A stretch of DNA of 38,652 nucleotides from IMG/VR virus record IMGVR_UViG_2671180727_000010; one strand, 5' to 3'. The number at the start of each line of letters is the position of its first letter. The stretch's first letter is position 1. Shown piece by piece: positions 26,498 through 27,067 of this stretch. A program made the position numbers and the translations under genes. Under the pieces are notes generated by a model. It saw nothing but the letters and a program-made list of their open reading frames with translations, ran no database searches and was not told the DNA's origin. Source of the DNA: a virus (Duplodnaviria; Heunggongvirae; Uroviricota; Caudoviricetes).

Positions 26498-27067
26498 TTA
26501 GTTGTTCAGATAAACATTTGGAACACGGACGTAGAAGTTCCTGTCGCCGGTAAGTTCCAGAGTAATGTTAATGTCATTACCATTGTCTAGTGTAGCCGTT
26601 GCTCTATAGAACTTATCCGTCACCTTGTCCTCTATTGTCACCTTCATACATTTTGGTGCAGTCGAACCGTTATTCTCTTTCAGAATAGTTGTCACGAGAG
26701 GGCAGGCTGCTTCTTCAAGAGCAACCTCGTCCTTGTGTGGGATGCCGATGAAGATAACCCAAGCCAGCGACGCAACGATTATGATAAATGGCACTCTGCT
26801 GCCTTTTGTAATAGTCGCGCGCTTCCAGAGATAGACAGGCAGGAGGAATACCCCCCATAGAATTGAAGGTGGTTCACAGCCAGACTCCGATAGAGCCATT
26901 CTGTCAGCTACTAACAAACCAATGGTAGTTACACCCCCAATTATAATAGCGTAATTGGTATACTCTTCCGGCGATACTCCAAAGAAGAAAGGCATGAACG
27001 CTAGAATCCACGCATAAATGTTATTCAGAGGTTTTGTTTGTTGGTTCTGGGTTTCCATCACATCCAT
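26498..27067 (-). CDS. Integral membrane protein (putative)
   Basis: Three hydrophobic helices (e.g. IYAWILAFMPFFFGV, YAIIIGGVTTIGLLVA, FIIIVASLAWVIFIGI) plus a soluble C-terminal domain; own promoter region 27068-27220. Confidence 0.55.
   Translation of the reverse strand: MDVMETQNQQTKPLNNIYAWILAFMPFFFGVSPEEYTNYAIIIGGVTTIGLLVADRMALSESGCEPPSILWGVFLLPVYLWKRATITKGSRVPFIIIVASLAWVIFIGIPHKDEVALEEAACPLVTTILKENNGSTAPKCMKVTIEDKVTDKFYRATATLDNGNDINITLELTGDRNFYVRVPNVYLNN

What the first reader, a model, noticed from the sequence alone, without database searches (positions are those of the whole stretch)
26498..27067. Prophage membrane protein with its own promoter next to the host boundary
A three-helix membrane protein with a soluble domain, transcribed from its own AT-rich promoter, is the typical make-up of superinfection-exclusion or abortive-infection determinants.
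Basis: inference. Interest (0 to 1): 0.35.

Follow-up and report, generated by a model that had tools for sequence, protein, structure and literature searches.

The report
Accessory membrane protein of a phage-plasmid
The ORF is a real, conserved gene for a small inner-membrane protein carried as a swappable accessory gene by an SSU5-type phage-plasmid (not an integrated prophage at a host junction); it may block entry of rival phages, but its function is untested and its family is uncharacterised.

Summary
The 189-codon ORF at 26498-27067 (-) is real and under purifying selection (dN/dS 0.05-0.2). It has four hydrophobic segments, of which three probably span the membrane. The C-terminal 75-residue helix plus four-strand domain is probably periplasmic and carries a conserved Cys pair.

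The window is an extrachromosomal SSU5-family phage-plasmid: all 240 E. coli matches lie on roughly 100-130 kb plasmids. The neighbouring metG-apbC is captured cargo inside the element, not a host boundary.

An own promoter is plausible. An extended -10 (TGnTAnnAT, 27101-27093) is invariant across alleles that share only 60-99% protein identity. The operator-like palindrome that precedes the neighbouring leftward genes is absent from this spacer.

The gene sits in a polymorphic slot and occurs as deeply diverged alleles on 93-99% identical backbones. In phage Cyrano the gene filling the same slot is a published lysogeny-expressed moron. A homologue in a Yersinia prophage sits between the tail chaperone and the tape measure, as the HK97 gp15 exclusion moron does.

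There is no match in Pfam, NCBIfam, PADLOC or PDB, and only PHROG 12486 (unknown function). The wider family has at least 1,433 clusters, often with cytoplasmic GYF_2 or zinc-ribbon domains.

Superinfection exclusion is the best guess (about 0.35) and is unproven. This is an ordinary moron-type gene of modest interest.

The parts
26498..27067 (-). Coding sequence of the membrane protein. It is 189 aa from the first ATG (27067). RefSeq starts at the fourth codon (ATG at 27058), giving 186 aa. Stop codon TAA at 26498-26500.
   Evidence: ORF list; RefSeq annotation of an identical plasmid; PHROG 12486 full-length match; dN/dS 0.05-0.2. The start codon is ambiguous. The N-terminus 'MDV' is kept in distant homologues that lack the fourth-codon Met (P0017), but the better Shine-Dalgarno-like GGA precedes the fourth codon.
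26975..27019 (-). Hydrophobic segment 1 (residues 17-31, with conserved W20 and P26). Predicted TM1, running cytoplasm to periplasm.
   Evidence: Hydropathy; AF2 helix 17-29; N-terminal cytoplasmic GYF_2 or Zn-ribbon fusions in relatives; conservation.
26906..26956 (-). Hydrophobic segment 2 (residues 38-54), followed by invariant D55. Predicted TM2, running periplasm to cytoplasm.
   Evidence: Hydropathy; AF2 helix 34-61; loop 1 is nearly free of K/R (0.15) while loop 2 is K/R-rich (2.55); D55 invariant in 40/40.
26825..26866 (-). Short hydrophobic segment 3 (residues 68-81). It carries the family signature P77-x-Y79-L-W-K-R83 and is predicted to be an interfacial or re-entrant helix on the cytoplasmic face.
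   Evidence: 13-14 residues, kinked in the AF2 model (H69-74, H76-87); both flanking loops are K/R-rich; Y79 and R83 invariant, P77 in 37/40.
26738..26794 (-). Hydrophobic segment 4 (residues 92-110). Predicted TM3, running cytoplasm to periplasm and continuing as the helix of the soluble domain.
   Evidence: Strongest hydropathy peak; AF2 helix 92-133; preceded by the most basic loop, KRATITKGSR.
26501..26737 (-). C-terminal soluble domain (residues 111-189): one helix packed on a four-stranded antiparallel sheet. It carries Cys122/Cys140 and the motif FY(K/R)AxAxLDNGNDI. Predicted periplasmic.
   Evidence: AF2 of the domain alone gives pLDDT 92.8 and pTM 0.80. C140 is present in 40/40, C122 in 33/40 and both in 33/40. 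No significant PDB match by fold (best E 0.34) or by sequence.
27093..27102 (-). Candidate extended -10 promoter element TTGATAATAT (TG at 27101-27100, hexamer TAATAT at 27098-27093).
   Evidence: The positions T-T-G-n-T-A-n-n-A-T are invariant in the alignment of upstream DNA from eight alleles with 60-99% protein identity, where mean column identity is 59%. It is the only TGnTAnnAT in 27040-27260 on this strand. It was not detected by the generic -35/-10 scan.
27068..27219 (-). AT-rich spacer (31.6% G+C) between the 61-codon ORF and the membrane-protein gene. It lacks the AAACAAnTTGTTT palindrome that precedes the neighbouring leftward genes.
   Evidence: Composition; palindrome map.
27220..27405 (-). 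61-codon ORF (PHROG 11467, unknown function). It belongs to the same swapped block in this lineage but is absent upstream of the gene in other lineages.
   Evidence: absent in L014, L016, L019 and L032; weak sub-threshold hit to T7 gp5.9 over 17 residues.
26487..27441 (.). Polymorphic slot. Relative to phage Cyrano this block is replaced by a different gene. Other E. coli phage-plasmids carry a 396-aa gene here, or nothing.
   Evidence: Homology to Cyrano stops at 26486 and resumes at 27442. Alternative occupants are shown. Against L019, identity falls from 93-99% to 76-79% between about 26493 and 27092.
27442..27750 (-). Upstream neighbour, a DUF5983-family gene. In other lineages it directly precedes the membrane-protein gene. 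It is preceded by two copies of the palindrome (27755-27767 and 27806-27818).
   Evidence: Pfam PF19419, E 8e-13; contexts; palindromes.
27903..31194 (.). metG (27903-29936, -) and apbC (30094-31194, +).
   Evidence: Annotated on plasmid pU_B2_3 and in phage Cyrano, with element genes on both sides. About 90% identical to the chromosomal locus of all 5,426 E. coli genomes; 216 records are at least 95% identical, and 222 of the matched places are on plasmids.

Best explanation
Shown or strongly supported (about 0.9): the ORF is a functional accessory gene of an SSU5-family phage-plasmid that replicates as a roughly 108-kb plasmid. It encodes a protein of about 21 kDa belonging to a large uncharacterised family.

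Predicted topology (about 0.75): the N-terminus is cytoplasmic. A TM1-TM2 hairpin is followed by a cytoplasmic loop that ends in an interfacial helix carrying the invariant D55...P-x-Y-L-W-K-R83 signature. TM3 then leads to a 75-residue periplasmic helix/four-strand domain, usually stapled by a Cys122-Cys140 disulfide.

Inferred (about 0.6): the gene is transcribed from its own extended -10 promoter. That promoter lacks the operator-like palindrome controlling the neighbouring leftward genes, so the gene is probably made in the plasmid (lysogenic) state, like a moron.

Inferred function (about 0.35, the confidence given below): the protein sits in the inner membrane with its periplasmic domain facing incoming phage tails. 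There it would block the step at which a superinfecting phage opens its DNA conduit through the inner membrane, either by binding the tape-measure or ejection proteins or by masking an inner-membrane entry factor. Cell-surface receptors would be left untouched. The deeply diverged alleles on near-identical backbones would then be specificity variants.
For: - Real gene under constraint.
- Phage-plasmid identity.
- Topology: hydropathy; AF2 models; K/R distribution over 40 homologues; N-terminal cytoplasmic GYF_2 in 44/84 and Zn-ribbons in relatives, with C-terminal replacement by other domains such as DUF4352 (PF11611) or FxLYD in some members; conserved Cys pair.
- Promoter: invariant TGnTAnnAT across alleles (53, 81). 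The palindrome AAACAAnTTGTTT occurs 11 times against 0.26 expected, always 4-74 nt upstream of leftward ORFs, but not upstream of this gene (84, 95).
- Moron behaviour: the slot is polymorphic (this gene, a 244-aa gene, a 396-aa gene, or empty). Allele replacement has sharp borders at the gene ends (97). Protein-identity bands in plasmids are >=99% 39, 95-99% 11, 80-90% 31, 60-80% 25 and <60% 2 (94).
- Homologue P0085 in Yersinia enterocolitica prophages lies between the sheath, tube and chaperone-like genes and the tape-measure/lysozyme gene (39, 92). That is the position described for the HK97 gp15 superinfection-exclusion moron (PMC3594210).
- Homologues in virulent Erwinia and Dickeya jumbo phages (11, 68, 25) fit exclusion, which lytic phages also use, better than abortive infection.
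- P22 SieA shows that a stand-alone inner-membrane protein suffices to block DNA injection (PMC10883804).
Against: - There are no functional data of any kind for this family.
- No sequence or fold similarity to any known exclusion protein. Forty family members hit only PHROGs 12486 and 11867, both of unknown function. PADLOC gave nothing.
- Most family members are cellular. They occur in Verrucomicrobiota, Lentisphaerae, Frateuria, Citrobacter and Pseudomonas, often with a cytoplasmic GYF_2 domain and in non-phage contexts. The ancestral role is therefore probably a cellular envelope function, not phage exclusion.
- The periplasmic domain is the most conserved part (dN lower than in the membrane part). 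A specificity-determining surface in an arms race would be expected to vary more.
- No intrinsic terminator follows the gene.
- The promoter was not mapped.
- The Cyrano expression data concern a different gene with a different upstream sequence.
Confidence: 0.35

Rival explanations
1. Host-envelope modulator unrelated to phage exclusion. The phage-plasmid carries a truncated copy of a cellular three-pass membrane protein, lacking the cytoplasmic GYF_2 or Zn-ribbon domain. This copy alters an envelope process of the host, such as signalling, stress response or protein anchoring. It might act as a dominant-negative or decoy of the cellular family, giving a lysogenic-conversion phenotype.
For: - The family is mainly cellular and phylogenetically broad: 1,433 clusters at E<=1e-3, with organisms listed.
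- 44/84 relatives have GYF_2 and others have Zn-ribbons; the phage copies lack these.
- Strong purifying selection acts on the periplasmic domain.
- Chromosomal contexts are not phage-like: FecR/sigma and PagP, T6SS tssB/C-like genes in Citrobacter.
Against: - No homologous DNA was found on E. coli chromosomes with the DNA query (0 of 240 places), so no obvious host paralogue exists to interfere with. A protein-level search of E. coli chromosomes was not possible.
- No conserved partner gene appears across contexts.
- This reading does not explain the allele replacement pattern or the presence in virulent jumbo phages.
Confidence: 0.3
2. A function in the element's own life cycle: a non-essential early or lytic-phase membrane protein, for example in lysis timing, membrane anchoring of replication, or protecting the infected cell during its own development.
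For: - The gene lies at the 3' end of a leftward string of small genes preceded by operator-like palindromes, so read-through from a regulated early promoter is possible.
- It is kept at the same position in E. coli, Citrobacter, Salmonella and Shigella SSU5-like plasmids.
- Homologues occur among early or nucleotide-metabolism genes of virulent jumbo phages.
Against: - The gene is absent from Cyrano, which nevertheless produces virions (PMC9928086), and from other phage-plasmids where the slot is empty or filled by an unrelated gene.
- tblastn against the phage collection, which includes SSU5, found no relative above 60% identity. The gene is therefore dispensable.
- The weak T7-holin hit is insignificant (E 0.11), and no lysis genes are adjacent.
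Confidence: 0.2
3. Abortive-infection effector: a membrane protein that depolarises or permeabilises the cell when triggered by an infecting phage.
For: It is a small multi-pass membrane protein in a polymorphic accessory slot of a mobile element.
Against: - No PADLOC match for it or for 84 relatives in the core module.
- No sensor or partner gene is conserved with it.
- Homologues in virulent phages would be self-defeating as abortive-infection genes.
- Most relatives are cellular proteins with interaction domains rather than toxin-like features.
Confidence: 0.08

Closest known systems
HK97 gp15 moron (superinfection-exclusion protein; Cumby et al. 2012, summarised in PMC3594210)
   Same: It is a small inner-membrane protein expressed from the prophage as an independent unit, with cellular homologues of unknown function (YebO for gp15). 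A member of the present family (P0085) occupies the same genomic position in a Yersinia prophage, between the tail chaperone and the tape measure.
   Different: No sequence relationship was detected. The protein here is larger, multi-pass and has a folded periplasmic domain. In the phage-plasmid the gene is not in the tail module. Exclusion has not been tested.
P22 SieA (PMC10883804)
   Same: [quoted passage not shown] It exists as deeply diverged sequence types (<30% identity), recalling the discrete alleles seen here.
   Different: No detectable homology. SieA belongs to P22-like podoviruses and acts on ejection proteins gp16 and gp20. The present element is an SSU5-like siphovirus phage-plasmid. 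Function here is only inferred.
T4 Imm / Sp (exclusion proteins of a virulent phage; from general knowledge)
   Same: They show that virulent phages also carry small membrane or periplasmic exclusion proteins. This would explain the family members in virulent Erwinia and Dickeya jumbo phages.
   Different: They are unrelated in sequence, size and topology. The resemblance is recalled from memory and was not tested beyond the negative PHROG scans.
Plasmid entry-exclusion proteins (F TraS, SXT/R391 Eex; from general knowledge)
   Same: They are small multi-pass inner-membrane proteins of mobile elements that occur as allelic specificity groups on otherwise similar backbones.
   Different: They act on conjugation. 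100 of 108 carrier plasmids here are non-mobilizable. No homology was tested or found.
Cellular GYF_2 / Zn-ribbon membrane proteins (Pfam PF14237 architectures; GltJ-like hits via the GYF domain)
   Same: True homologues of the core module (three-pass membrane part plus, usually, the same C-terminal domain), with E values down to 1e-57.
   Different: The window protein lacks the GYF_2 domain. These cellular proteins are themselves uncharacterised. The GltJ matches come from the GYF domain only.
Periplasmic domains of ToxR-like regulators (VtrA, PDB 5kew)
   Same: A small membrane-anchored periplasmic alpha/beta domain. It ranked third in the domain-only fold search.
   Different: The match is not significant (E 0.72, TM 0.38). 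There is no DNA-binding domain. This is not evidence of relationship.

Membership tests
PHROG 12486 (phage protein family, unknown function) | Full-length match to the family profile | tested here: met
   E 1.4e-123, residues 1-189 against profile positions 1-189 of 189. All 40 diverse relatives also match.
Moron (autonomously expressed accessory gene of a temperate phage) | Present in some and absent from other, otherwise collinear, genomes | tested here: met
   The slot 26487-27441 holds a different gene in Cyrano and other plasmids, or is empty. Sharp identity drop at the gene borders.
Moron (autonomously expressed accessory gene of a temperate phage) | Own promoter | tested here: inconclusive
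   A conserved extended -10, TGnTAnnAT, is present and the neighbours' palindrome is absent. The generic scan was negative and no transcription start data exist.
Moron (autonomously expressed accessory gene of a temperate phage) | Own terminator | tested here: not met
   No intrinsic-terminator-like site lies downstream of 26498 on the minus strand before 25517. Only a weak 7-bp hairpin without a T-run was seen by eye.
Moron (autonomously expressed accessory gene of a temperate phage) | Transcribed in the lysogenic/plasmid state | not testable with these tools
   Only indirect evidence: the unrelated gene in the same slot of Cyrano (CYRAN_102) is 6-fold above prophage background in LF82 RNA-seq (PMC9928086, Table 1).
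Known superinfection-exclusion proteins (SieA, gp15, Imm, Sp, Cor, Llp, Ltp, Sie2009 as represented in PHROGs) | Sequence homology to a characterised exclusion family | tested here: not met
   hmmscan of the protein and of 40 relatives against PHROGs returned only families 12486 and 11867, both of unknown function.
Known superinfection-exclusion proteins | Inner-membrane location with an exposed extracytoplasmic part | tested here: met
   In silico only: hydropathy, AF2, positive-inside distribution and a conserved Cys pair.
Known superinfection-exclusion proteins | Blocks infection at DNA entry without affecting adsorption | not testable with these tools
   Requires plating, adsorption and DNA-entry assays.
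Abortive-infection / defence systems (PADLOC-DB 2.0) | Match to a defence-protein model | tested here: not met
   No hit for the protein. Among 84 relatives there were only scattered single hits at E>1e-3, or hits in added HEAT domains.
   Pfam and NCBIfam gave nothing at E<=0.1 and nothing meaningful at E<=10. The PDB profile search gave nothing. Foldseek against PDB had best E 0.13 (full length) and 0.34 (domain).
GYF_2-domain membrane proteins (PF14237) | Presence of the GYF_2 domain | tested here: not met
   Absent from the window protein. Present N-terminally in 44 of 84 homologues of the core module.
Holins (T7-type, PF10746) | Significant profile match and linkage to an endolysin | tested here: not met
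   E 0.11, 12.7 bits against a cut-off of 25.4. No lysis genes are adjacent.

The most novel reading that the evidence does not exclude
The gene could be a phage-captured, domain-stripped member of a very large, unnamed family of three-pass membrane proteins, with at least 1,433 clusters at 50% identity. The family is defined by an invariant cytoplasmic D...P-x-Y-x-W-x-R signature and a disulfide-stapled periplasmic alpha/beta domain with no significant match in PDB. If so, it may define a new class of entry-exclusion or envelope-hijacking determinant. Discrete alleles would set specificity, and the determinant would be shared by phage-plasmids, prophage tail-module morons and virulent jumbo phages.
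Probability: 0.15. Interest if true: 0.55.

Novelty: new member of a known kind. Interest (0 to 1): 0.3.

Why it matters
SSU5-type phage-plasmids are common in E. coli, Shigella, Salmonella, Citrobacter and Klebsiella and are increasingly linked to resistance and defence cargo. What they express in the carried state is mostly unknown.

If this gene is an exclusion determinant, it would affect the susceptibility of carrier strains to therapeutic or environmental phages. It would also give a first function to a large family of membrane proteins that has no Pfam entry.

If it is not, the finding is one more hypothetical moron. Its practical value is then the corrected context: the element is a phage-plasmid, and metG-apbC is cargo rather than a junction.

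Tried and rejected
- **Domain and defence libraries.** Pfam, NCBIfam and PADLOC scans of the protein (and at E<=10) and of 84 relatives gave no family for the core module. The GltJ, HEAT, Zn-ribbon, DUF4352 and FxLYD hits all come from added domains.
- **PHROGs.** Only unknown-function families were hit.
- **Structure searches.** The sequence profile against PDB gave nothing. Foldseek of the full model and of the C-terminal domain against PDB gave nothing significant. The NanoLuc, VtrA and Acb4 rows are chance-level. BFVD returned only uncharacterised phage proteins.
- **Second word-indexed protein search.** The search with a 40-sequence profile added almost nothing.
- **The search for related loci.** It failed with the diverse alignment. 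With the closer alignment it found only 4 genomes and 17 viral contigs.
- **Generic promoter/terminator scan.** No minus-strand promoter was found in the spacer. The one terminator-like hit (27013-26992) lies inside the coding sequence and was rejected as chance.
- **Rfam.** No relevant RNA family was found in 20000-33000.
- **Alternative slot occupants.** The 244-aa and 396-aa proteins have no Pfam or PADLOC identity, so the slot cannot be called a defence hotspot.
- **Partnership with the 61-aa ORF.** The idea that the two form an obligate two-gene system was rejected because other lineages carry the membrane gene without it.
- **Integrated prophage next to host metG.** Rejected.
- **Literature.** Searches by accession and PHROG id found only the Cyrano paper. 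GYF_2 and DUF4339 searches gave nothing on bacterial membrane proteins.
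Full report
**What is at the coordinates.** The minus strand carries an ATG-to-TAA ORF of 189 codons at 26498-27067. 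An identical sequence on E. coli plasmid pU_B2_3 is annotated by RefSeq as a 186-aa hypothetical protein starting at the fourth codon.

The gene is real. It matches PHROG 12486 end to end (E 1.4e-123). It has orthologues at 60-99% identity in many records. Pairwise dN/dS among five diverged alleles is 0.05-0.2 while dS is near or beyond saturation.

The start codon is ambiguous. The Met-Asp-Val N-terminus is retained in a 43%-identical homologue that lacks the fourth-codon Met (P0017). The better Shine-Dalgarno-like GGA precedes the fourth codon.

**What the element is.** A 1-kb query around the gene hits 240 places in 5,426 complete E. coli genomes, all on plasmids and none on chromosomes. 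The first 25 kb of the window is 95-99% identical to the phage-plasmids Escherichia phage CMS-2020a, PhiR41_1 and Cyrano, and about 80% identical to Klebsiella SSU5-like phages and to Salmonella phage SSU5.

In PLSDB the protein is encoded on 108 plasmids: Escherichia 85, Citrobacter 16, Salmonella 5, Shigella 2. Of these, 100 are non-mobilizable and the listed records are mostly 100-130 kb. The window is therefore an SSU5-family phage-plasmid.

The metG-apbC pair at 27903-31194, taken as the host boundary, lies inside the element with phage-plasmid genes on both sides. It is about 90% identical to the chromosomal metG-apbC present in every E. coli genome; 216 records are at least 95% identical and 222 of the matched places are on plasmids. 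It is old captured cargo, not a junction.

**Anatomy of the protein.**
- Hydropathy shows four hydrophobic segments at residues 17-31, 38-54, 68-81 and 92-110.
- AlphaFold2 with a 12-sequence alignment gives pLDDT 82.6. The model has helices 17-29, 34-61, 69-87 (kinked) and 92-133, then four strands between 140 and 181.
- The C-terminal 78 residues modelled alone with 37 homologues give pLDDT 92.8: one helix on a four-stranded antiparallel sheet.

Over 40 diverse homologues the mean K+R count is 0.15 in loop 1, 2.55 in loop 2 and 3.50 in loop 3. Relatives carry GYF_2 (44 of 84) or zinc-ribbon domains at the N-terminus, and some replace the C-terminal domain with others such as DUF4352 (PF11611) or FxLYD.

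The topology that fits all of this is as follows. The N-terminus is inside. TM1 and TM2 form a hairpin. A cytoplasmic loop follows, in which the short third hydrophobic stretch is an interfacial or re-entrant helix. TM3 leads to a periplasmic C-terminal domain.

Conserved positions are D55, Y79 and R83 (40/40), P77 (37/40), W20 (36/40), C140 (40/40) and C122 (33/40). A Cys122-Cys140 disulfide in the periplasm is the simplest reading of the cysteine pattern. 'Three-helix membrane protein with a soluble domain' is thus approximately right, although no dedicated topology predictor was available.

**Family.** No Pfam, NCBIfam or PADLOC model matches the core module. No PDB sequence or fold matches significantly.

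An exhaustive HMMER search of 1.84 billion cluster representatives with a 12-sequence profile finds 1,433 clusters at E<=1e-3 and 439 at E<=1e-10. Organisms include Verrucomicrobiota, Lentisphaerae, Frateuria, Citrobacter, Yersinia and Pseudomonas. Distant members occur in virulent Erwinia and Dickeya jumbo phages and in other phages in BFVD. This is a large, unnamed, mostly cellular family, and the phage copies are the short forms without the cytoplasmic domain.

**Promoter.** The 152-bp spacer upstream (27068-27219) is 31.6% G+C against 46.9% for the window. The generic -35/-10 scan found nothing on the minus strand there.

Aligning the upstream DNA of eight alleles gives a clearer picture. 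The farther-upstream sequence in these alleles is unrelated: in some it is the end of the DUF5983 gene, here it is a 61-codon ORF. Even so, the positions T-T-G-n-T-A-n-n-A-T are invariant. They correspond to 27102-27093 and form an extended -10 element (TGnTAnnAT), the only one in 27040-27260 on that strand.

Separately, the palindrome AAACAAnTTGTTT occurs 11 times in the window at one mismatch or fewer, against 0.26 expected. Every copy lies 4-74 nt upstream of a leftward ORF, including two copies upstream of the DUF5983 gene. None lies in the spacer upstream of the target. If the palindrome is an operator, the target's promoter is outside that regulon.

An own, probably constitutive promoter is therefore supported by inference but not shown. 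Read-through from upstream remains possible. No intrinsic terminator follows the gene.

**Population behaviour.**
- Against phage Cyrano, homology (97-98%) stops at 26486 and resumes at 27442. Cyrano carries an unrelated 244-aa gene in between.
- Other E. coli phage-plasmids carry a 396-aa hypothetical gene there, or nothing. None of these alternatives has a recognisable function.
- In Salmonella, Citrobacter and other E. coli lineages the membrane-protein gene follows the DUF5983 gene directly, without the 61-codon ORF, and is always followed by about 1.5 kb without annotated genes.
- Against locus L019 the flanks are 93-99% identical, but identity falls to 76-79% exactly between about 26493 and 27092. 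Whole alleles are exchanged at the gene borders.
- Protein identities to the window allele in plasmids fall in bands: >=99% 39, 95-99% 11, 80-90% 31, 60-80% 25 and <60% 2.

**Evidence bearing on function.** All of it is circumstantial.
[quoted passage not shown] It is a different gene with a different upstream sequence, so this shows only that the position is compatible with lysogenic expression.
- In Yersinia enterocolitica prophages the homologue P0085 lies between the sheath, tube and chaperone-like genes and a tape-measure/lysozyme gene. It is preceded by an AT-rich spacer containing TTGATAATGT. That is the position of the HK97 gp15 moron, an inner-membrane superinfection-exclusion protein (PMC3594210).
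- P22 SieA shows that a single inner-membrane protein can block DNA injection and that such proteins exist as deeply diverged types (PMC10883804).
- Members in virulent phages argue against abortive infection and are compatible with exclusion.
- Against exclusion: the family is mainly cellular, other contexts are non-phage, and the periplasmic domain is the most conserved part rather than the most variable.

**Verdict.** The gene, its membrane nature and a plausible own promoter stand. 'Prophage at the host boundary' does not.

The exclusion/abortive-infection interpretation is a reasonable but untested guess. I put superinfection exclusion at DNA entry at about 0.35, a host-envelope modulating role at about 0.30, a non-essential role in the element's own cycle at about 0.20, and abortive infection at about 0.08.

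This is an ordinary moron-type accessory gene from an uncharacterised family. It is worth a simple plating experiment but is not a surprising finding.

Noticed in passing
window 13183-13195, 13208-13220, 22324-22336, 22809-22821, 23559-23571, 24462-24474, 24946-24958, 26142-26154, 27755-27767, 27806-27818, 36081-36093: The palindrome AAACAAnTTGTTT occurs 11 times at one mismatch or fewer, against 0.26 expected by chance. Every copy lies 4-74 nt upstream of a minus-strand ORF start. A pair 51 nt apart upstream of the DUF5983 unit is kept in all SSU5-like lineages examined. It looks like the operator set of a phage-plasmid regulator controlling the leftward small genes.
   Followed up: partly
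window 27903-31194: The phage-plasmid carries a second metG (methionyl-tRNA synthetase) and apbC. They are about 90% identical to the chromosomal pair of every E. coli; 216 records are at least 95% identical and 222 of the matched places are on plasmids. The apbC homologue of Cyrano (CYRAN_99) is expressed 9-fold above background in lysogens (PMC9928086). Why a phage-plasmid keeps an extra MetRS is unexplained.
   Followed up: partly
window 25100-26490: About 1.4 kb has no convincing genes. RefSeq annotates none; Cyrano annotates two low-complexity ORFs. It has strong strand asymmetry (G+T-rich on the + strand, GC skew up to +0.47), degenerate direct repeats, and a terminator-like hairpin at 25517-25490 (-). 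It is collinear and about 67% identical in distant SSU5-like lineages. No Rfam match. It could be a Rho-dependent termination zone, an origin or a long non-coding transcript.
   Followed up: partly
window 26487-27441, with L002 4488-5269, L044 and L045: A polymorphic cassette slot between the DUF5983 gene and the gene-free region. Alternative occupants are the target gene (with or without the 61-codon ORF), a 244-aa coiled-coil protein, a 396-aa hypothetical protein, or nothing. None has a known function.
   Followed up: yes
window 27220-27405 (-): A 61-codon ORF (PHROG 11467, mildly acidic) is present only in this allele lineage. It has a sub-threshold 17-residue resemblance to the T7 gp5.9 RecBCD inhibitor (E 0.006, 16.9 bits against a cut-off of 24.5).
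   Followed up: no
window 27056-27072 (-): A four-codon upstream mini-ORF (ATG GAA TGG ATG TGA/TAA) overlaps the first codons of the gene. Its stop overlaps the fourth-codon ATG (TGATG). It is kept in all eight aligned alleles, with TGA changed to TAA in the 60-64% alleles. This may reflect translational coupling or may simply follow from conservation of the N-terminus.
   Followed up: no
L006 8001-8567 (also L003-L005), Yersinia enterocolitica prophage: A 31%-identical homologue sits as an insert between the tail sheath, tube and chaperone-like genes and a tape-measure/lysozyme gene of an E217-like myovirus prophage. TTGATAATGT lies in the AT-rich spacer upstream.
   Followed up: partly
L023 5683-6510, Citrobacter amalonaticus chromosome: A GYF_2-bearing homologue lies next to what I read, by eye from the ORF translations, as type VI secretion sheath and baseplate genes and an EcsC-like protein; these ORFs were not scanned against any family library. 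This is a non-phage context for the family.
   Followed up: no
window 31232-31621 (-): A UmuD/HumD-like S24 peptidase gene is about 85% identical at DNA level to humD of phages P1, P7 and SJ46. This indicates exchange between P1-type and SSU5-type phage-plasmids.
   Followed up: no
window 21217-21283 (-): A weak Rfam match to the Hfq-regulated sRNA Hrs1 (32 bits against a gathering score of 56.4, E 0.0055). It is probably chance.
   Followed up: no
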